Below are positions 4,286 through 51,904 of a stretch of DNA of 64,000 nt, in pieces. The stretch is taken from the NCBI RefSeq assembly GCF_009914755.1, contig NC_060943.1; one strand, written 5' to 3'. A model generated the notes under the pieces. It saw only the letters and a list, made by a program, of their open reading frames with translations, made no database searches and had not been told where the DNA came from. A program made the translations under genes and the position numbers. Origin of the DNA: the human T2T-CHM13v2.0 reference genome, Homo sapiens. The number at the start of each line of letters is the position of its first letter. Within the stretch, counting starts at the first letter, position 1.

Positions 4286-4882
4286 TAAGCCAAGCATGCA
4301 TATAACTGACACTGTGCGTCTCAGGTTGGCTGTCTCTGTACCCCAGAGACCGTAAGCCAAGCATGCATATAACTGAGACGGTGCATCTCAGGTTGGCTGT
4401 CTCTGTACCCCAGAGACCATAAGCCAAGCATGCATATAACTGAGACGGTGCATCTCAGGTTGGCTGTCTCTGTACCCCAGAGACCATAAGCCAAGCATGC
4501 ATATAACTGAGACAGTGCATATCAGGTTGGCTGTCTCTGTACCCCGGAGGCCATAAGTCAAGCATGCATATAACAGATGGTGCGTCTCAGGTTGGCTGTC
4601 TCTGTACCCCAGAGACCGTAAGCCAAGTGTGCATGTAACTGAGACTGTGTCTCAGGTTGGCTGTCTCTGTACCCTAGAGACTGTAAGCCAAGCATGCATA
4701 TAACTGAGACTGTGTGTCTCAGGTTGGCTGTCTCTGTACCCCAGAGACCGTAAGCCAAGCATACGTATAACTGAGATGGTGCATCTCAGGTTGGCTGTCT
4801 CTGTACCCCAGAGACCGTAAGCCAAGCATGCATATAACTGAGACTGTGCATCTCAGGTTGGCTGTCTCTGTACCCCAGAGAC
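4286..4882 (+). repeat. Minisatellite, ~67-bp unit x ~9
   Basis: Unit aagccaagcatgcatataactgagacggtgcatctcaggttggctgtctctgtaccccagagacc(g/a)t; unit starts at 4421 and 4488. Confidence 0.95.
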
Positions 4883-5031
4883 TGGGTTGACAGGGATCAA
4901 GAACAGGGTTGGGAGGCAGTGAGCCTCTCAAGGACAGCAAATGTGGGCTTCCCGACTCTGACAGGATTGGCAAGAGGAATGAGTCCAGGAACTAGAAACC
5001 AACAGAATGTGACATTTTCCCTTTCCTGCAG

Positions 5032-7620: not shown

Positions 7621-8000
<380 letters not shown>

Positions 8001-15321: not shown

Positions 15322-15750
15322 CACCAGGTGTGATAGCTTAGTCCTGCAGTCCCAGCACTAAAGGAGCCTGAGGCAAGCCAATAGCTTGAGGCTAGGAGTT
15401 CAAGAACAGGCTGGGCAACATGGTAAAACCCCATCTCCATAAAAATTAGCCAGGCGTGGTGCATGCCTGTAGCCCCAGTTACTCAGGAGGCTGAGGAAGG
15501 AAAATTGCTAGAACCCAGGAGGTCAAGGCTGCAATGAGCCATGATCATGCCACTGCACTTCAGCCGGGATGACAGAAACCCCATCTCCACAAAAATTAGC
15601 CCGCAGGCGTGGTGCTTGCCTGTAGTCCCAGCTACTCAGGAGGCTGAGGCAGGAAAATTGCTAGAACCCAGCAGGTCAAGGCTGCAGTGAGCCATGGTCA
15701 TGCTGCTGCACTTCAGCCAGGATGACAGAGACCCCATCTCCAAAGAAGAA
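15322..15750 (+). mobile_element. AluJ-like element with tandemly duplicated right monomer
   Basis: Two ~160-bp right-arm copies sharing ggaaaattgctagaaccca and cacttcagcc.ggatgacaga. Confidence 0.85.
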
Positions 15751-16118: not shown

Positions 16119-16289
16119 GTTGGAAGAATGTGGGTTAACGAGCACCTGCTGTAAGGATCTCGCGTCTGTTCTCACCTGCAGTAAGACCCTGCAGCTGCTC
16201 AACCTGACCTTGAACACCTTGGACCACACAGGGGTGGTTGTACTCTGTGAGGCCCTGAGACACCCAGAGTGTGCCCTGCAGGTGCTCGG
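16119..16289 (+). CDS. NLRP4: NLRP4 LRR exon (exon 9), 171 nt
   Basis: ttattgcag|G ... GG|gtgagc; LEECGLTSTCCKDLASVLTCSKTLQLLNLTLNTLDHTGVVVLCEALRHPECALQVLG. Confidence 0.95.
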
Positions 16290-35357: not shown

Positions 35358-35978
<621 letters not shown>

Positions 35979-41717: not shown

Positions 41718-42270
41718 AACCTCAGGCCTTTCACTCTGCTGTTCCTTCTCCGCATACGGCTGCCTCCCCCTTGCTTCATCTGAGTCTCTATTTAAGTATC
41801 ACCTGTTCAAATAGGTTAGTGAGAGAAGACCCTGCTGGGAAATCAACCCCATCCCTGTCATTCTACTCTCGTTCTACTTTGTTTTTCTTCATATCTATTG
41901 TTTTGTTTTTATATGTCACTCATAAAACTATACCTTCCACATGGGCAGGAAGTAAATCTGTCATATCTACCACCCCAGCCTTGAGGCCTTGTTCTATCTC
42001 TGCTAGAAGCTCACATATGAGTTGACCAAAAAATTCATTACTTCCTGGGGTCCTCGTGGAAATTAAGTTTCTTGGCAAAAGCTCCAGAGACGGGATCAAC
42101 AAATCCAGGATGCTACTCTGAATCTGTTTTAGAGCAATTCCTGGCACATAGTAATTACTCAATGAATGTTACTTTTTAATAATATAAATAGATATCAAAT
42201 GAAGAAACCATTGTTCTAGATATCTGTGCCCATAGAGTCATATCTAGAAATGGAAGTAGGGAAAACTTAC

Positions 42271-42441
42271 TCCAGTCTCTCTAAGGCACACTTGGGGTGA
42301 GTCAGGGCCGCACACAATAGCTTTATGCCATCATCTTGGAGCCGATTAAATCCCAGGCACAATCGAGTTACATGTTGGATGCTGGTGAGAAACAAGGCTA
42401 GGTCCTGACAGCTGGCTGCCGACAAGTTGCATTTCTCCAGG
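42271..42441 (-). CDS. NLRP13: NLRP13 exon 8, LRR, 171 nt
   Basis: ttccacag|C ... GA|gtaagt; LEKCNLSAASCQDLALFLTSIQHVTRLCLGFNRLQDDGIKLLCAALTHPKCALERLE. Confidence 0.95.
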
Positions 42442-42588
42442 CTGTGGAAGGTGCAGGTGCAAGGTGAGCCTCAGCCATGATGCCCAGGTTCCTCTACCTT
42501 TCTCTCTCAACCCCTTAACCCCCGAGACCCAAACATTATGGGAAGATTAAATTGGAGAAAGAACAAAAGCTTAAAGAAGGAGAAAAAG

Positions 42589-42995
42589 GGCCAGGCGCAG
42601 TGGCTGACGCCTGTAATCCCAGCAGTTTGGGAGGCCAAGGCGGGTGGATCACCTGAGGTCAAGAGTTCGAGAGCAGCCTGGCCAACATGGAGAAACCTCA
42701 TCTCCACTAAAAAAAATACATATATATATACATACATATATATATACACGTATATATACACACACATATATATGTATATATATACATATATACACACATA
42801 TATACATATATATATACACACATATATACATATATATCTGGGCATGGTGGTGTGCACCTGTAGTCCCAGCTACTCAGAAAGGCTGAGGCAGGAGAATTGC
42901 TTGAACCCAAGAGGCAGAGGTTGTGGTGAGCCAAGAGTGCGCCACTGTACTCCAGCCTGGGTGACAGAGGGAGACTCCATCTCAAAGAGAAAAAG
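42589..42995 (+). mobile_element. Alu with (TA/CA)n expansion in the linker (~42718-42838)
   Basis: Alu arms separated by a microsatellite. Confidence 0.9.
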
Positions 42996-43331
42996 GTGAG
43001 GCAAGGTAGGGTTTTCTCAGCCCTATTGAGGTGTGGGCTGGATCGCACTTAGTTGCAGAATGAGAGGACTGCCCTGTGCATTACAGGATGTCAATAATAA
43101 CTGACCTTTACCCACTAGGTGTTACCCACTAGTAGCAACCCCTACACCATCAGGACAACCAAATATGTTGTCCAGGCATTGCCAAATGTCCCCTGGGGGA
43201 CAAAAATCAAATCATCCCCAGTTTCAACTAATTTAATAGAATCCAGTTGAAAACCCCTGGATTTGGGGAGAATCAAAGAAGCCTAAGGAAATTATGCAAA
43301 GAAAGGCTGCCGTGTGAGATAGCCATGATCA

Positions 43332-44033
<702 letters not shown>

Positions 44034-44299
44034 CTATCACAGAGGCCCCGAGACAGACCGTTACTCTTTGAAAGAGTGATCTGTGTTTACAGACCCCCCC
44101 TGCTCCATGAATGAAAGCTGACTTTCTCCCTCTTCCCCATCCCTTTCAGAGGTTGGATGGCCCGCATGTCAACGCTACTCAAAGCATGGTCCATGATCCA
44201 GCAAGAGCAGCATGACGTGGTAGCCTGTTAGAAGTGCTCATTCTTAGGTCCCACCCCAAATGTGCAGGATCTCTGCAGTTGAGTTCCTGGGATCTGTAT

Positions 44300-44930
44300 T
44301 ATTATTATTTTTTTGAGTTAGAGTCTTGCTCTGTTGCCCAGGCTGGAGTGCAGTGTCACAATCTTGGCTCACTGCAACCTCCGCTCCCGGGTTCAAGCGA
44401 TTCTCCTGCCTCAACCTCCTGAGTAGCTGAGATTACAGGCATGTGCCACCACACCCGGCTAATTTTTGTATTTTTTAGTAGAGACGGGGTTTCACCGTGT
44501 TGGTCAGGCTGGTCTCGAACTCCTGACCTCATGATTTGCCCCACTCCACCACCCAAAGTGCTGGGATTACAGGCATGAGCCACCACACCTGGCCTGGAAT
44601 CTGTATTTTAAAACACCCACTAGGTTGGGCCGGGCACATTGACTCACGCCTGTAATCCCAGCACTCAAGAGGCCGAGGCAAGCAGATTGCTTGAGTCCAG
44701 GAGTTCAAGACCAGCCTGGGAAACATGGCAAAACCCCATTTCTACAAAAAGTACAAAAATTCACTGGGTGTGGTGGCACACACCTGTGGGTACCAGCCAC
44801 TCGGGGGCTGCAGTGGGAGGACTGCTTGAGCCAAGGAGGCAGTGGTTGCAGCAAGCAGAGATCACGTCACTGCACTCCAGCCCGGGGAATAGAGTGAGAC
44901 CCTGTCTCAAAAACAAAACAAAATAAAAAA
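44300..44930. mobile_element. Head-to-head Alu pair: ~44300-44593 (-) and ~44627-44930 (+)
   Basis: Inverted Alus ~35 bp apart. Confidence 0.88.
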
Positions 44931-45113
44931 TAACCTCCCCCAAGGTGAGGCTAATATACATTAAAATTTGAGAACCACGGCTCTACACATAGGAACATTC
45001 TCCTTTGCTCATCCTTCTCTGTCTCCTTTTGCTACAAGGCTGAGTGCTGTCAGCCCTCCCAGTGGATCGTGGAAGCTACTGGTGGTCTTGCAACCCCCCT
45101 TGACAGATCTAGG
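44764..45113 (+). repeat. ~350-bp segment with an inverted copy at 48379-48730
   Basis: Alu right arm plus its non-Alu 3' flank are both duplicated. Confidence 0.9.
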
Positions 45114-45128
45114 GAGCCAAAGACTTAC

Positions 45129-45293
45129 CACAGATACTTGAGGTTGCAAGCTGAGTGTCTCAAAGCTTTAAGAATCAGGGGGACAGTCATTCCCAGCTTG
45201 TTAGAGCTGAAGTTCAGATGGGTCAGCTTGCTGTTACCCTGAAGGGCAATAATGAGGTCCTGCAGAACCCACTCAGGAGTTACCGATTTGCAC
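45129..45293 (-). CDS. NLRP13: NLRP13 exon 7, LRR, 165 nt
   Basis: ttcctcag|G ... TG|gtaagt; CKSVTPEWVLQDLIIALQGNSKLTHLNFSSNKLGMTVPLILKALRHSACNLKYL. Confidence 0.95.
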
Positions 45294-45741
45294 CTGAGGA
45301 AGGGAAGGGACATGAAAGCTGGATTGGGGGAGAAGACTGGTTTCCAGGATCCCGTCTGCCTCCTCACCCTGCCTTCTACTACACTCACTGCCAAGGTTAT
45401 ACACGGTACACAAGGAATTAAAAACAAGGGCTGAGCCATGGTACTGGACCTTGAAAATAAAAACTAAAATATACTCCCCCCAAAAAAATCAGTAAACTCA
45501 GTTGCAGGTACGAAGTCAGGGATCCCTCCTTCCCTCTCTACCTCTCCTAGAGACCTGCCATGAAGAGGTCCTGGGGCCACCTATTCTTCTAGGAAATGAC
45601 CCCCCCATATACACATACAATCCAACCTAGAAAAGCCCAGCAATAACTCTCTTGCATTTTCTGAACTTCTTTCTCCTTATCTTGAGAACTAAGTACGACC
45701 AAAAGTTTAATATTAAAAGAAAAATTTAAAAAGAAGACTGC

Positions 45742-46265
45742 CCAATCCCATTACTGGGTATATGCCCAAAGGAACGTAAATCGTTCTATTATAAAGACAT
45801 ATGCACACGTACGTTCATTGCAGCACTATTCACAATAGCAAAGACAGGAAATCAACCTAAATTCTCATCAATGATGGACTAAACAAAGAAAATGTGGCAC
45901 CTATACACCATGGAATACTATGCAGCCATAAAAAAGAATGAGATCATGTCCTTTACAAGAACATGGATGGAGCTGGAGGCCATCATCCTTAGGAAGCTAA
46001 TGCAGGAACAGAAAACAAAATACCACATGTCCTCACTTATAAGTGGGAGCTAAATGATGAGAACACATGGACACATAGTGAGGAACACTGGGGCCTGTTG
46101 GAAGGTGAAGAGTGGGAAAAGGCAGAGGATCAGGAAAAATAACTAATGGGTACTGGGATTAATATCTGGGTGATGAAATAATCTGTACAACAAACCCCAT
46201 GACACACATTTACCTAGTGACATACACTTGTACCCCTGAACTTAAATGTATTTTAAAAAAATAAA
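45742..46265 (+). mobile_element. L1PA 3' fragment
   Basis: caatcccattactgggtatatgcccaaagg ... tacccctgaacttaaa, then A-rich tail. Confidence 0.85.
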
Positions 46266-46702
46266 TGAAGGCCACAGCCCCCTCTGCCTGCCTCTCATGA
46301 GTTTGGTCCAGCTCACCCAATACACTGAGGTTTGAGGAAAGTTACGATCAAACCTTTCACTCTTAACTGGTTGAATCAATGCACACATCTAGGCTTTAGA
46401 CCTTGAAAAGTAAGACCTAATGGTGGGGGAAAAGCAAGGTAGAATTCATTGGCCTAGACACCAGATCATTCAAACAAATCCCACCTCAGATTCAAAGCTA
46501 CGCATTACTCTCTCCTCTATAGTTCCCCCCCGACTTAATTGTTATACAAGGTCCACCTCCATTTGCTAATTCCTTCCTATCTTCAAGCCAGATCTGAGAC
46601 ACTGTCATTCATTCCTCCTTGGATTATATTAGCAGGGGACCAATACGCTTTAGTCCACAGCTGTGCTCCAGCTCCAGAGAGGACCCTCCCCCTGCTCACC
46701 TT

Positions 46703-47095
46703 TATTTTAAGAGGTTCTATTTTTAATTCACATACTTTTTCCCTTTTCTGCAGCTCATGTTTCTCCCTAATTCATCCCAGGACAAGCCTAGGAAACCCTG
46801 GTGTTGCCTCCAAGAGGAAAGACATACACATCAAATGCAGCAGTATGCTGATAAATATTACCACTGGATCTCCAGGAAAAAAAAAAAAAAGTCCTAATTT
46901 ATAGCTTTGCCAATTTCTGTGGTGTAAATTCTCCAAGCCAATCATGGCCAATTTCGATCTGCCCACTTGCTGTCACTAAATGGAGTTACAAAGATAGGTA
47001 CACACACACAAGTGGCTCTCACCAGGTTGTAGCAGCTGGCTCCAACATGTCACTGGACAGAAATACATGTCCAGAATTGGTAATAGAAGGCCTGA
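46703..47095 (-). repeat. Inverted paralogue of NLRP4 intron segment 18375-18798
   Basis: Reverse-complement alignment by eye. Confidence 0.92.
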
Positions 47096-47899
47096 TGGCT
47101 TTGTTGATATCATTTGAATATACTAAGTACATTCTCCTCATGGTGCCTTCTATCTCGTTTTCTTGGCTTGGAATGCTCTTTTTCCCCAGGTATCCATGGG
47201 CACAGTCCCTCCTCCTTCCCTACACTGAGTCAAGTCGGTCTTTACCCAAATACCTTTTCAGTGAGGCCCTTCTGCCTTTCCTACCTAAAAAATGCAAGCC
47301 ACCTTCCTCCTCATACATCCTTTCTGAGCCCCCAGTTTTCTTTGGGAGATGCCACCCTCTTGGGTCCTATTTTGATGATTTTGTTTGCTTCCCTGACACA
47401 ATGTAAGATCCCTGATGGCAGGAGTTATCTGTGGGCTTCACTGCTAGAACCTCAGAACTGAGAACAGAACCTGGCACACAGGAGATGTCCAATACTCACT
47501 GAATGCAGGAGTACCCATCAAACACTACCTACTTTTGCTTAAGACACGAAGCAGTCTCAGACTACACGTGTCTGTAGCTCTTCTTGAGTGCTTTGAGTCC
47601 ACCATACCCTCGAAGTTTTCTACTCCTTCAAATCCAGCTCAAAACAGGACTGAGGCCCTAGGGAAAAATTACTTTGTCCACAGGTGCCTCTAATGCGAGA
47701 TCATTCTTGATAGATCGGCATTTTAAAATTTCAGCCTACTTTGCCTAAGTAGCAGTTTCATAAATACAAGCACAGTTTATTTTATCCTCCTGAGCACGTA
47801 GCTTGCCTTCTGGCAAATAGTCAACCACACTCATCAAAAGAGAGAAGTTGGGAGATTCTCCTAGGGTATCTTCTTGAGCTGCTGGCGTCTCACACTTAC

Positions 47900-48070
47900 G
47901 TCAGTTTCTGGACTTTGCATCTTGGATTTTTCAGTGCAAGACAGAGACCCTTCACAGAGGAAGCATGAAGTTTGCTGTTACTCAGGTCTAGCTCATGCAG
48001 ATTCTCATTTGTGACCAACGTAGAGCAAATGCTGTTCCATGCGTGCATCCTGGAATCAAACTTGCTTGTC
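47900..48070 (-). CDS. NLRP13: NLRP13 exon 6, 171 nt
   Basis: cctcatgaag|G ... AC|gtaagt; TSKFDSRMHAWNSICSTLVTNENLHELDLSNSKLHASSVKGLCLALKNPRCKVQKLT. Confidence 0.93.
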
Positions 48071-48186
48071 CTTCATGAGGGAGAGACAGAACACGGATAA
48101 GAGCAAATTAGCCTCAAGCAATACCCAGAATACAACCTACGGGACACAGAAAGAAACCCTAACAAAATTATTATAATTTTCCTAAT

Positions 48187-48378
48187 GTGGCTGGGTGCAG
48201 TGGCTCACGCCTGTAATCCCACCACTTTGGGAGACCGTCGGGAGTTTGAGACCACCATGGCCAACATGGTGAAGCCCCGTCTGTACTAAAAATACAAAAT
48301 TAGCCAGGTGTAGTGGTGCATGCCTGTAATCCCAGCTACTCAGGAGGCTGAGGCAGGAGAATAGCTTCAACCTGGGAA
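48187..48378 (+). mobile_element. 3'-truncated, internally deleted Alu
   Basis: Ends abruptly at cctgggaa, where the inverted duplication starts. Confidence 0.8.
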
Positions 48379-48730
48379 CCTACATCTGTCAGGGTGTGGG
48401 GGTTGCAAGACCACCCCTAGCTTCCATGATCCACTGGGAGGGCTGACAGCTCTCAGCATTGTAGCAGATGGAGACAGAGAAAGATGAGCAAAGGAAAATG
48501 TTCCTATGTTAGAGCCATGGTTCCCAAATATTAATGTATATCAGCCTCACCTTGGGGGAGGTTATTTTTTATTTTGTTTTGTTTTTGAGACAGGGTCTTA
48601 CTCTGTTGCCCAGGCTGGAGTGCAGTGATGTGATCTCTGCTTGCTGCAACTTCTGCCTCCTTGGCTCAAGCAATCCTCCCACCGCAGCCCCCCAGTAGCT
48701 GGGACCACAGGTGTGTGCCACCACACCCAG
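48379..48730 (-). repeat. Inverted copy of 44764-45113
   Basis: cctacatctgtca ... ggttgcaagaccacc ... cagcctcaccttgggggaggttatttttt ... ccacacccag. Confidence 0.9.
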
Positions 48731-49042
48731 CTAATAACCACTCAGTCATGGACATTCAGTTAGATACAAGTAGATGTCTTAGCACAATGCCTGGTACTTA
48801 AACCCTCCATATTCAATGCCTAAGATATAAAGATGTCTTTAAGTTGATCAATTAGATTAGCTAGGAAACTAGGTGATGCCTAAAGGACAACATTCTTTCA
48901 AGTTAGAGCTGCTCCAGACCATTTGGTCGGAAATAAGCACGAATACATAACGACAACACATCCCTGGTTTTGCATGAAAGAATTTGCACAGAGCCTGAGA
49001 AAACAGGAGAAAGCTGAGAAAGAAATGGTTTGTAATACTCAC

Positions 49043-50630
49043 TCCAGAATTTCCAAGTCCCTTTCAAGGATGTGACTGCTAACAGAAAGCCTTAGCTTAT
49101 TTAACCTTTTACAGTGCTTTAGGCAAAATGAAGAAGCTTGGAGTTCTTCGTCCTCCAAAATATTAAGGTCAACTTCAAAGATACGACCCAACATCTTCTT
49201 TGTGAAGTCTTCCTCCTGGGACTCGTGTAGGCAGTGAAAAAGTCGTAGAATGTGAAATTGGAGAGAGGCACTTTCAGCCTTACCTAACTCTTCTCCCCAC
49301 TTTAATAATTCCTCCATTACCCTGGGAGATATTTTACAATGCAAAGTATCTTCCAGTTCTCTTGCTATGTTTTTATTTAAAAGACCAAAGAAGAACAGAA
49401 CCACTGGAGTCCAGTAGGCTTCTTTGTCAAGCAAGACGTGTTGCAGTAACATCTTCATCTCTTGTGGCTTTGTGGAATGGGGAGGGAATTCTCTAGGTTC
49501 CTCTAGCACAAAGGACATGGCTGCAAAAAACTCCTGGAAACTTAGGTGGGTGAAAGTAGTGCAACCCCCACAGTCATTGATCTTTTGAAGAATATTGAAC
49601 TCGTAGAGAGAATCAATGAAAGGCACTTCCAGGCCCTCGATCTCAGTGTCTTCTTTGTTAAACGTGAAGTTCATAGACCACAGCCCTTCTATGGCCAGAC
49701 TGCAGAGGGCCCTCCATTGTCCTGGCCAGCTGTCATCTGCCAAATCTACCTCTGCTGTGGAGAACAAGTTGGAGAAAAAATAGGCATACAGACTGGTGGT
49801 AGTCTGAGTGATTGACTGGAGATCGTAATACCTCACCTTCGGCTGCTTCAGACAGGAACATACGGTCCAACACACCATGGGGGCACTGCAGGAATGAAAG
49901 AGAGTTTCGTTTTTTCTTAGCTGCTGCAGGATTTTCTCAACTTCACTTGAGTCATCAAAGTGTCTCATGAAATATACCCGTAGGTCGTCCCCTGTGAACC
50001 CTGTAATTTGTACAAAGCATGGATTCACTAATGAGGCCTTAAGATCTCTCACAAACCAGGTCTTGATCGTGATCAGTAAGGTAGCCAGGGGAACCAATTC
50101 TTTCTTCAACAAGCTGTGTAGGATTTTGGTCACTGGGAGCTCCTGGTACCAGTCTGTACATGGCGAGCCATCATCCAAGCTCTCAGAGCGTGACTCAGAT
50201 ATGATTATTTCCTCAAAGCCATCAATAATAAACAGGAGCTTCTCTGGTTGAGACATGAACTCTTCAATGGGGGCATCAAAATCGGGCCAATCCAAAGAAA
50301 TCAATTCAGCAAAGGTAGTTTCCTTCATGTACCTTATTTTATGGCAGCTGAGATAGAAAACATAGGAGAACCTTTGCTGAAAGAGAACTCCATTTGCCCA
50401 GTGCAGCATAGCCTGCATTGCCAAGGTGGTCTTCCCAACCCCTGCCCTCCCCACCAAGACTATCGTCTGGGCCTGGGCTCTAGTCCTATTAGGATCCAGT
50501 AGGCGCTGCAGTTCCTCATGTTCGTCCTTTGATGTATTACGGATATATACGTGGTCTTTAGGCCAACTGATGTTGTCCCATGTCTCCAGTAGTTCAGCCT
50601 TCATGTTCTCTCTGTATTTTCTTCTGTGGT
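49043..50630 (-). CDS. NLRP13: NLRP13 exon 5, NACHT domain, 1588 nt
   Basis: ctctctag|A ... GA|gtgagt; Walker A GRAGVGKT (50428-50451), Walker B LLFIIDGFEE, APMVCW, winged-helix FTHLSFQEFFAAM. Confidence 0.97.
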
Positions 50631-50780
50631 CTAGAGAGGGCGGAGTGGGGAGAAGAATGTTAAGAATAAATTTCAGAGTTAGGAATGATTCAGTTACAAA
50701 GTTCCTACCCCAAAGACTTGAATAAGAGAAACTCTGCCTTCCAGGATTTTGTGGGAATGCAGTGGTAGAAAGTTGCAAAA

Positions 50781-50901
50781 GGAGGCTGAGGTAGGAGAAT
50801 GGCGTGAACCCGGGAGGCGGAGGTTGCAGTGAGCCGAGAGGCACCACTGCACTCCAGCCTGGGTGACAGAGTGAGACTCCGTCTCAAAAAAAAAAAAAAA
50901 A
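50781..50901 (+). mobile_element. 5'-truncated Alu (right-arm end) with TSD aaagttgcaaaa
   Basis: TSD at 50769-50780 and 50899-50910. Confidence 0.85.
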
Positions 50902-51904
50902 GTTGCAAAATATGAAGACAGTTAAATAATTTGATGATATATACAAATGAAAAATACAGAATAACATAAGAGCGATCAAGAACACCTTTAAGAGAGGGCA
51001 GAGAAGGGATCATAGCGAGAAGCCTCTCACTAGAGGATTCTACACTGAGAATGGAGAAGAATCATCAGAAGAGAAGTCAGTCTGGGGTACTTTCAGGCGG
51101 GGGGAAGGCCAAGGTGAATGCCCACCCAGAATTTTTTTCTGCAAGCCTCGTGAGTGTGCCCACTCCATTGCCTGACCAGCTCAGCACCCCAAAAACACCT
51201 TCTAGCCAGTAGAGGGGGCCCATGAGCCCTCTTCCCTCACCAGCTATCAGGTTTTCCTCACTTCCTCGAAACACTTCAGAGCAACAAGGGATTTGGGCAG
51301 GTCAGAGTCCCCCACTCACAGAAGGCTGACCCGACTCGACTCACAAGGGAATCAGTAACTGTAGAGCCTGCCAGTTTTCCTGGTCCCTGTGCCCAGACAG
51401 CTTCAGCTGGTGAGGGCTTAGACTCTAGGTTGCCCTGAAGATCAAGGCTTTGTCTCTCCCATTCTCCCCATTCCTGGGTTTCTTCCCAAAATGACTACTG
51501 TGGGGCCAGTCACAGCACAAGGGCCAGGACCTCTACAGAGGCTGGGGTGAGGAGTGATTGAGCTAGCGATTCTTAGAGGCCTTCTGGGGCCTACTACGTA
51601 TGCTGAGACAGAAATGAGCATTCTAGAGTATAGTGACCAAGGCACATGGTAGGAGGCTGGATCGTGATTATCTTTGCTTTGAAAACCAAGGAATGAGATG
51701 CCGTAATTTATATTTTTAGAACTCCAGGTTTTATAAAGAATAGATTATGATGCATCAGTGTAGGAAAGGAGGTAGAGAAAACAAGTAGAAAGCTACTACT
51801 ATCTTCATCTAAGTGAAAATGGGCACCTGGCAGACTAGAATGTATTTGTAGAATATACCCCATCAGTATATGTAACTATTACATATCTGCAAAAAATTTA
51901 GGAA

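What the first reader, a model, noticed from the sequence alone, without database searches (positions are those of the whole stretch)
44764..48730. Inverted duplication bracketing NLRP13 exons 6-7 (loop-out / circRNA architecture)
Seen: 44764-45113 (Alu right arm plus ~180 bp of non-Alu flank) recurs inverted at 48379-48730, roughly 85-90% identical by eye. One arm starts 15 nt past the exon 7 donor; the other ends ~310 nt before the exon 6 acceptor. The second copy is fused to an Alu cut mid-arm, suggesting a templated insertion during repair. Established: complementary flanking intronic sequences promote back-splicing, exon skipping and ADAR editing. Exons 6+7 total 336 nt, phase 2-2, so skipping is in frame. 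Inference: the stem could regulate LRR number and would bring the NACHT donor closer to the cryptic 44033 acceptor.
Basis: partly seen in the sequence, partly recalled or inferred. Interest (0 to 1): 0.7.

Follow-up and report, generated by a model that had tools for sequence, protein, structure and literature searches.

The report
Inverted intronic duplicate bracketing NLRP13 exons 6-7
A 355-base piece of NLRP13 intron 7 was copied upside-down into intron 5 long ago, so the pre-mRNA can form a long stem that loops out exons 6 and 7; this resembles known layouts that favour circular RNA, but nothing seen here shows it regulates the gene.

Summary
Arm A (44759-45113) and arm B (48379-48735) are inverted copies: 354 aligned columns, 90.7% identical. 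Each holds the right half of one old Alu, its A-tail and 183 nt of non-repeat intron.

The 183 nt matches only these two places in the whole 3.1-Gb assembly. The Alu halves share 14 private changes. This is therefore one segmental copy, not two insertions of a repeat.

Arm A carries the complete Alu. Arm B is cut off at both ends and abuts a 3'-truncated Alu. The likely history is a copy from intron 7 into intron 5 during repair or template switching, very roughly 15-45 My ago.

As RNA the arms pair over 328 bp (ddG -409 kcal/mol; shuffles about -7.5). The stem persists in the minimum-energy fold of the 4.9-kb pre-mRNA.

A functional role is not shown. NLRP13 is listed as a circRNA host in early human embryos, at very low ratios and with exons I could not see. 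Its paralogue NLRP4 is listed at similar values.

All six LRR exons are frame-symmetric, so in-frame skipping is not special to exons 6-7. It is a new example of a known kind, of modest interest.

The parts
44759..45113 (+). Arm A (probable source copy), in NLRP13 intron 7, ending 15 nt from the exon 7 donor. Alu right monomer 44759-44904, A-tail 44905-44930, non-Alu intron 44931-45113.
   Evidence: the non-Alu part has only two places in the genome
44630..44930 (+). Complete old Alu ('AluA'). Only its right half was copied into arm B.
   Evidence: 14 shared-derived positions with arm B against 15 other window Alus
44291..44617 (-). Neighbouring Alu ('AluX'), head to head with AluA. It is the within-intron pairing competitor for the uncopied left half of AluA.
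   Evidence: 109 pairs with the AluA left half in the 4.9-kb fold
48379..48735 (-). Arm B (derived inverted copy), in intron 5, 308 nt upstream of the exon 6 acceptor in the transcript. It is truncated inside the Alu at one end and 15 nt short of the exon 7 donor equivalent at the other.
48189..48378 (+). Alu ('AluY') with an intact 5' end, lacking roughly its last third and A-tail, fused directly to arm B. Marks the acceptor break site.
   Evidence: no Alu match between 48736 and 50779
47900..48070 (-). NLRP13 exon 6 (171 nt), inside the loop.
   Evidence: annotation supplied with the finding; splice sites and translation read
45129..45293 (-). NLRP13 exon 7 (165 nt), inside the loop, with a gtaagt donor.
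   Evidence: annotation supplied with the finding

Best explanation
This is an old, locus-private inverted segmental duplication, and most likely a neutral relic. About 355 bp of NLRP13 intron 7 (the right half of an old Alu, its A-tail and the 183 nt of unique intron reaching to 15 nt from the exon 7 donor) was copied in reverse orientation into intron 5, at a break inside another Alu that lost its 3' third in the event. The mechanism is inferred to be template switching or a templated fill-in during break repair. Because the copies sit in introns 5 and 7, a pre-mRNA that still holds both introns can zip them into a roughly 328-bp imperfect duplex that loops out 3265 nt containing exon 6, intron 6 and exon 7. 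Expected consequences (inferred, not shown) are by-products: low-level back-splicing of exons 6-7 into a 336-nt circle, some exon 6-7 skipping, and A-to-I editing of the stem. I do not think it is a dedicated regulatory switch.
For: Shown: 90.7% identity over 354 columns in inverted orientation. The non-Alu 183 nt has exactly 2 matches in the 3.117-Gb assembly, both being the arms. The Alu halves are 92% identical to each other but at most 83% to any other window Alu. They share 14 derived positions out of 118 scored columns, against 7 A-only, 2 B-only and 3 ambiguous. Arm A has the whole Alu; arm B starts at Alu position about 135 and is fused to a 3'-truncated Alu with no continuation beyond it. 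K2P distance is 0.087. Computed: cofold dG -648.5 and ddG -409.1 kcal/mol with 328 intermolecular pairs, versus ddG -162 and -158 for the best Alu-Alu competitors. 25 dinucleotide shuffles give mean -7.5, minimum -14.3. All 328 pairs persist in the minimum-energy fold of the 4901-nt pre-mRNA segment. For a by-product rather than a switch: NLRP13 circRNA junction ratios in embryos are very low and similar to NLRP4. No paper names a circNLRP13. Inverted repeats alone do not guarantee a circle, and an Alu A-tract inside a repeat inhibited one at EPHB4.
Against: The direction (A to B) and the repair mechanism rest on parsimony from one genome. No outgroup or pre-insertion allele was available, and junction microhomology could not be assessed. 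The stem is thermodynamic only; co-transcriptional removal of the 972-nt intron 5, helicases or editing could prevent it. The 2-cell ratio (-4.89) is higher than any early-stage NLRP4 value, so a real contribution to circles is not excluded. At least 20 novel NLRP13 isoforms are reported in human oocytes, and I could not see their structures. A frequent exon 6-7-skipped form could be among them.
Confidence: 0.75

Rival explanations
1. One reading: the inverted duplicate is a functional cis-module. Its stem promotes back-splicing of exons 6-7 and/or in-frame skipping (exon 5 to exon 8, or to the LRR-like stretch at 44033), and thereby tunes the LRR number of NLRP13 in oocytes.
For: The architecture meets the physical requirements: arms in the two flanking introns, 328 predicted pairs, and cross-intron pairing far stronger than within-intron pairing. 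Exon 6 has an ag acceptor and exon 7 a gtaagt donor. 30-40-nt repeats suffice in minigenes. NLRP13 is among 2974 circRNA host genes in human early embryos. Many novel oocyte isoforms exist. Skipping keeps the frame.
Against: No junction, isoform structure or editing site for these exons was seen. The circRNA ratios are very low and not clearly above NLRP4. Frame symmetry holds for every LRR exon. An A-rich tract lies inside arm B as transcribed. The arms have diverged 8-9% with 6 gap columns, as expected for neutral intron. Searches found 0 papers on NLRP13 with RNA editing and none naming circNLRP13.
Confidence: 0.12
2. The two arms are independent insertions of a composite dispersed repeat (a Dfam family next to an Alu), not a duplication.
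For: None found.
Against: The whole-genome search with the 183-nt part found 2 candidates and scored 2, both being the arms. There is no other copy in the window at E of 0.1 or less. The Alu-tail-to-flank junction is identical in both arms, and there are 14 shared private Alu changes. Caveat: the genome tool warns that counts are lower bounds and that common words are skipped.
Confidence: 0.02
3. The pair matters at the DNA level: as inverted repeats 3.3 kb apart the arms could mediate inversion of exons 6-7 by non-allelic recombination, or hairpin-driven instability, giving rare null alleles.
For: Inverted orientation, 355 bp, 3265-bp spacer. The source arm adjoins a head-to-head Alu pair.
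Against: Identity is only about 91%. The longest continuous helix in the RNA duplex, wobble pairs included, is 68 bp, so uninterrupted DNA identity is no longer than that; this is short for efficient homologous recombination (recalled knowledge). Exons 6-7 are in the normal orientation in this assembly. No population data were available.
Confidence: 0.04
4. Assembly artefact: a spurious inverted copy in the T2T assembly.
For: None.
Against: 29 substitutions and 6 gap columns separate the arms, with derived changes on both copies. That pattern indicates long independent decay, not a mis-join of reads from one locus.
Confidence: 0.01

Closest known systems
Inverted Alu pairs / intronic complementary sequences flanking circularised exons (e.g. 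ZKSCAN1, HIPK3, EPHB4 exons 11-12; Liang & Wilusz 2014, PMC4201285: abstract and sections 10 and 15 read)
   Same: Reverse-complementary sequence in the introns on either side of a small exon block. The predicted circle (336 nt, two exons) is close in size to the 360-nt EPHB4 circle. The pairing length far exceeds the 30-40 nt shown to suffice.
   Different: The complementarity comes from one segmental copy that includes 183 nt of unique intron, not from two independent transposon insertions. At 328 bp the stem is longer than a single full-length Alu (about 300 nt). No circle from these exons has been documented in what I could read.
Mouse Sry circular transcript, whose circle depends on long inverted genomic duplications flanking the exon (recalled from memory; no paper read here)
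   Same: Flanking inverted duplicated genomic sequence, rather than dispersed repeats, brackets the circularised exon.
   Different: The Sry arms are recalled as far longer (kilobases) and near-identical, and the circle is the major product in testis. Here the arms are 355 bp at 91% identity and the output is unknown.
Small inverted duplications made by replication template switching or templated insertion at break repair (FoSTeS/MMBIR-type events; recalled knowledge)
   Same: A short nearby segment copied in inverted orientation a few kb away, joined abruptly to unrelated sequence, with loss of sequence at the acceptor site (the 3' third of AluY).
   Different: Such events are usually described as recent pathogenic or polymorphic variants. 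This one is fixed in the assembly and old (K2P 0.087). Its junction microhomology cannot be read without the ancestral allele.
Natural skipping of a single 171-nt LRR exon in NLRP3 (recalled from memory; not read here)
   Same: NLRP LRR exons are frame-symmetric, so skipping yields an in-frame protein with fewer repeats (for NLRP13).
   Different: That case is recalled as not depending on a flanking inverted duplicate, and no skipped NLRP13 isoform was seen here.

Membership tests
Intronic complementary sequence pair able to drive back-splicing | Reverse-complementary sequences located in the two introns that flank the exon(s) | tested here: met
   Arm B lies in intron 5 (48071-49042) and arm A in intron 7 (42442-45128), in inverted orientation
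Intronic complementary sequence pair able to drive back-splicing | Base-pairing of at least about 30-40 nt (Liang & Wilusz abstract) | tested here: met
   328 intermolecular pairs, helix runs up to 68 bp, ddG -409 kcal/mol; shuffles mean -7.5
Intronic complementary sequence pair able to drive back-splicing | Pairing across the flanking introns wins over pairing within each intron | tested here: met
   Thermodynamics only. Within-intron competitors give ddG -83 (arm A with AluX) and -44 (arm B with AluY). All 328 cross pairs are kept in the 4.9-kb minimum-energy fold. Kinetics were not tested.
Intronic complementary sequence pair able to drive back-splicing | Canonical acceptor and donor on the bracketed exons | tested here: met
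   Exon 6 has a pyrimidine tract and ag; exon 7 is followed by gtaagt
Intronic complementary sequence pair able to drive back-splicing | An observed back-splice junction joining the exon 7 donor to the exon 6 acceptor | not testable with these tools
   NLRP13 is listed as a host gene, but the other tables of that paper are .xls files that could not be read, so no junction coordinates were seen. No paper names a circNLRP13.
Templated inverted insertion / template-switch duplication | A nearby donor segment copied in inverted orientation with abrupt, non-homologous ends | tested here: met
   The donor is 3.3 kb away. Arm B ends fall inside the Alu linker and 15 nt from the donor-site equivalent. 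It is fused to mid-Alu sequence of AluY.
Templated inverted insertion / template-switch duplication | Microhomology at the junctions and an empty site in outgroup species | not testable with these tools
   No primate genomes were held (one search states the assembly has no relatives here). The intron 5 flank is single-copy, so no paralogue shows the empty site.
Dispersed repeat family (independent insertions) | Many genomic copies of the non-Alu part | tested here: not met
   2 of 2 genome-wide matches are the arms; no other window copy
ADAR hyper-editing substrate | Long intramolecular dsRNA in a transcribed region, with clustered A-to-G differences in RNA reads | tested here: inconclusive
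   The dsRNA is predicted, with 154 paired adenosines. Editing itself is untestable here, and 0 papers pair NLRP13 with RNA editing.

The most novel reading that the evidence does not exclude
A primate-specific inverted copy of NLRP13's own intron 7 acts as a built-in circularisation and skipping module in oocytes. Whenever intron 5 splicing is slow, the 328-bp stem diverts transcripts into a stable 336-nt circle of exons 6-7, which is stop-free in the native frame and has two AUGs, and into an LRR-shortened protein. ADAR editing of the stem would set the ratio. That would be a case of a gene acquiring a splicing switch through a single repair accident.
Probability: 0.1. Interest if true: 0.5.

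Novelty: new member of a known kind. Interest (0 to 1): 0.27.

Why it matters
Flanking inverted repeats are the main known cis-determinant of which human exons circularise, and nearly all described cases use two independent Alus. Here the complementarity was created in one step by an inverted copy of local intron. The stem (328 bp) is longer and predicted to be more stable than any Alu-Alu pairing tested here at this locus.

If it had a measurable effect, it would be a clean natural experiment: one datable event, one gene, one tissue. It would show how a repair accident can change the isoform output of an oocyte-expressed NLR. If it does nothing, it is a useful negative example that a very strong predicted stem is not sufficient. 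Either outcome is incremental for the field.

Tried and rejected
1. Independent repeat insertions: rejected by the whole-genome search and by shared private Alu changes.

2. A known structured RNA in or near the arms: the Rfam gathering scan of 42000-51000 found 0 families.

3. Reconstructing the empty acceptor site from a paralogue: intron 5 segment 48736-49042 is single-copy, so this was not possible.

4. The circRNA hit for NLRP13 in PMC6524185 is a 17-nt intronic interval in a serum-exosome table, not an exon 6-7 circle.

5. Target-site duplications around the arm A Alu were inspected by eye. They were not clear enough to use.

6. An RNA-templated (retro-copy) origin was considered. Neither end of arm B carries an A-tail and no flanking duplication is visible, so a DNA-templated origin is preferred. 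The RNA route is not excluded.

7. Asymmetry of change (7 A-derived vs 2 B-derived) involves too few sites to interpret.

9. The genome search failed three times as busy before answering.

10. Literature searches that found nothing useful: NLRP13 + RNA editing, 0 papers; circNLRP13 spellings, 0; NLRP13 + splice variant + leucine-rich repeat, 5 irrelevant listings.
Full report
**Observation**

- The repeat finder reports two adjoining inverted blocks, 44789-44985/48510-48706 (197 nt) and 44987-45098/48398-48509 (112 nt), each 92% complementary.
- blastn joins them into 44764-45113 against 48730-48379: 354 columns, 90.7% identity, 27 mismatches, 3 gap openings, E 1e-138.
- A global alignment of 44759-45113 with the reverse complement of 48379-48735 has 324 of 353 ungapped columns identical (17 transitions, 12 transversions, 6 of them in CpG context) plus 6 gap columns.
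- In a self-comparison of the whole window, 556 pairs of 250 nt or more were found, with identities of 65.9-92.8%. Only the tandem array at 4286-4884 matches or exceeds this pair, and it is the only inverted pair of 250 nt or more at 88% identity or more.

**Anatomy**

Read on the + strand, the arm A region contains:
- a complete Alu at 44630-44930 with both monomers;
- its A-tail, ending near 44930;
- 183 nt of non-Alu intron running to 45113, which is 15 nt from the exon 7 donor at 45129.

Arm B, read on the - strand, contains:
- the same Alu, starting at about position 135, just after the A-rich linker between the monomers;
- the same A-tail;
- the same 183 nt, 89.3% identical to arm A.

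At 48378/48379 arm B is joined directly to another Alu (48189-48378, + orientation). That Alu has an intact 5' end but stops at about two thirds of its length. No Alu sequence resumes beyond 48735.

The Alu map of the neighbourhood is:
- intron 7: Alu pieces at 42589-42993 (+), 43386-43690 (+), 44291-44617 (-) and 44630-44930 (+);
- intron 6 (2606 nt): none;
- intron 5 (972 nt): only the truncated Alu and arm B.

**One copy event, not two insertions**

A search of the whole assembly (3,117,275,501 bases, 24 contigs) with the 183 nt found 2 candidates and scored 2. These are the two arms, at 100% and 89% identity. The tool warns that its counts are lower bounds. Within the window no other match reached E of 0.1 or less.

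The Alu halves are 92% identical to each other, but arm A's Alu half is at most 83% identical to any other Alu in the window. I polarised 118 alignment columns against 15 other window Alu segments:
- 94 columns where both arms match the majority;
- 14 positions where both arms share a state differing from the majority;
- 7 positions changed only in A;
- 2 positions changed only in B;
- 3 further ambiguous positions, not counted among the 118.

So the Alu had already aged before it was copied, and both copies have decayed since.

**Direction, mechanism and age (inferred)**

Arm A carries the full Alu and runs on seamlessly to exon 7. Arm B is cut at both ends and sits against a mutilated Alu. 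The simplest history is that about 355 bp of intron 7 was copied in inverted orientation into a break within the intron 5 Alu, with loss of that Alu's 3' third. Template switching at a stalled fork or a templated fill-in during end joining would both produce this.

An RNA-templated origin was considered. No A-tail or flanking duplication marks arm B. The empty site could not be rebuilt, because the adjoining intron 5 sequence is single-copy and no primate genomes are held.

The K2P distance of 0.087 gives about 20-44 My with recalled neutral rates of 1.0-2.2e-9 per site per year. The ratio of post-copy to pre-copy Alu changes would allow a somewhat younger date. I therefore give 15-45 My as a rough bracket. 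This is not a measurement.

**RNA structure**

NLRP13 is on the - strand, so arm B (intron 5) is transcribed first and arm A (intron 7) about 3.3 kb later.

| Pairing | ddG (kcal/mol) | Note |
|---|---|---|
| Arm B with arm A (across exons) | -409.1 | 328 intermolecular pairs, no intramolecular pairs, dG -648.5 |
| Whole AluA with AluX (within intron 7) | -162 | |
| AluY with AluX (across exons) | -158 | |
| Arm A with AluX (within intron 7) | -83 | |
| Arm B with AluY (within intron 5) | -44 | |
| Arm B with 25 dinucleotide shuffles of arm A | mean -7.5, minimum -14.3 | control |

- In the minimum-energy fold of the 4901-nt pre-mRNA segment 49100 to 44200, all 328 arm-arm pairs form. The uncopied left half of AluA pairs with AluX over 109 pairs.
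- The duplex has helix runs up to 68 bp, 10 G:U pairs and 154 paired adenosines.
- The stem encloses 3265 nt: the truncated Alu, exon 6, intron 6 and exon 7.
- It places the exon 5 donor 307 nt from one end of the stem. From the other end, the exon 8 acceptor is 2317 nt away and position 44033 is 725 nt away.

**What bears on function**

In favour:
- Exon 6 has a pyrimidine tract and ag, and exon 7 is followed by gtaagt.
- Inverted repeats of 30-40 nt suffice for circularisation in minigenes (PMC4201285, abstract).
- In PMC4911693, Additional file 5 (Table S4, header seen) lists NLRP13 among the 2974 circRNA host genes of human pre-implantation embryos. The log-scale junction ratios are -9.56 (zygote), -4.89 (2-cell) and -10.30 (4-cell), with no value at the other stages. 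The log base was not stated in the passages I saw.
- In another table of that paper (column headings not viewed), the NLRP13 row falls from 618 to 0.5 across seven values, consistent with a maternal transcript.
- PMC13233917 (passages and supplement part 373 read) lists 20 rows of novel human-oocyte isoforms, NLRP13-HON-4762 to -4781. The strongest are HON-4764 and HON-4775. The text says some NLRP13 isoform ORFs have Ribo-seq support.

Against:
- The other tables of PMC4911693 are .xls files I could not read, and the isoform tables I saw in PMC13233917 give no exon structures. Neither source therefore ties anything to exons 6-7.
- NLRP4 is listed with similar ratios (-9.87, -10.14, -9.07, -8.82, -8.98, then -1.59). 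No comparable inverted pair exists elsewhere in the window, which covers only the last five NLRP4 exons.
- Liang and Wilusz found that an Alu poly(A) tract inside a repeat inhibited the EPHB4 circle. They stress that a repeat pair does not guarantee a circle and that ADAR may oppose pairing (sections 10 and 15). As transcribed, arm B carries the interrupted 25-nt A-rich tail.
- Exons 6 to 10 are 171, 165, 171, 171 and 168 nt, all between phase-2 introns. In-frame skipping is therefore a property of every LRR exon, not a signature of this pair.
- By inference, intron 5 is short and complete about 3 kb before arm A exists, so it may often be removed first.
- Literature searches found 0 papers pairing NLRP13 with RNA editing and 0 naming circNLRP13. 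The single circRNA paper naming NLRP13 in its text lists a 17-nt intronic interval.

**Verdict**

The structural reading (an inverted duplicate bracketing exons 6-7, probably a templated insertion) is supported. The regulatory reading is unproven and, on the indirect evidence, probably at most a minor by-product.

This is a new member of a known kind: intronic complementary sequences flanking exons. It is unusual only in that one segmental copy made it, rather than two transposon insertions. No Rfam family lies in 42000-51000.

**Side observations**

- The 'cryptic 44033 acceptor' belongs to an open, 162-nt LRR-like stretch (43872-44033, - strand). It has phase 2-2, a preceding ag with a weak pyrimidine tract, and a following gtaagt. 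Its peptide is 22/56 identical to exon 8. It is single-copy in the genome and is not among the RefSeq exons supplied with the finding.
- A circle of exons 6+7 would be 336 nt, stop-free in the native frame over three laps, with two AUGs.

Noticed in passing
window 43872-44033 (- strand), NLRP13 intron 7: An open 162-nt LRR-like stretch in the same phase (2-2) as the real LRR exons. It is preceded by ag with a weak pyrimidine tract and followed by gtaagt. The peptide is 22/56 identical to NLRP13 exon 8 and to the NLRP4 exon at 16119. It is single-copy in the genome and not among the RefSeq exons supplied: a decayed or unannotated alternative LRR exon.
   Followed up: partly
window 44291-44930: Two Alus lie head to head (44291-44617 on -, 44630-44930 on +), a dozen to about 35 nt apart and about 73% identical, immediately beside the copied segment. 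They pair over 109 bp in the long fold. Such close inverted Alus are recalled to be break-prone, which could relate to the duplication event. Not tested.
   Followed up: partly
window 45129-45293 + 47900-48070: A circle of exons 6+7 would be 336 nt, divisible by 3, with no stop in the native frame over three laps and two in-frame AUGs. It would be an endless reading frame if it were ever made and translated.
   Followed up: partly
window 4286-4884 (NLRP4 intron): Tandem array with a period of about 67 nt; copies are 90-96% identical.
   Followed up: no
window 15426-15742 (NLRP4 intron): Direct tandem duplicate of about 150 nt at 91% identity.
   Followed up: no
window 7715-7843 vs 35841-35968: A 129-nt inverted match at 89% identity between an NLRP4 intron and an NLRP13 intron. 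Probably a shared repeat fragment.
   Followed up: no
PMC13233917 supplementary file 1, part 373: Human oocyte long-read data list 20 novel NLRP13 isoform rows (HON-4762 to -4781). No FSM or ISM row for NLRP13 was seen in that part. Neighbouring NLRP11 also shows many novel isoforms. RefSeq models may under-describe these oocyte genes.
   Followed up: partly
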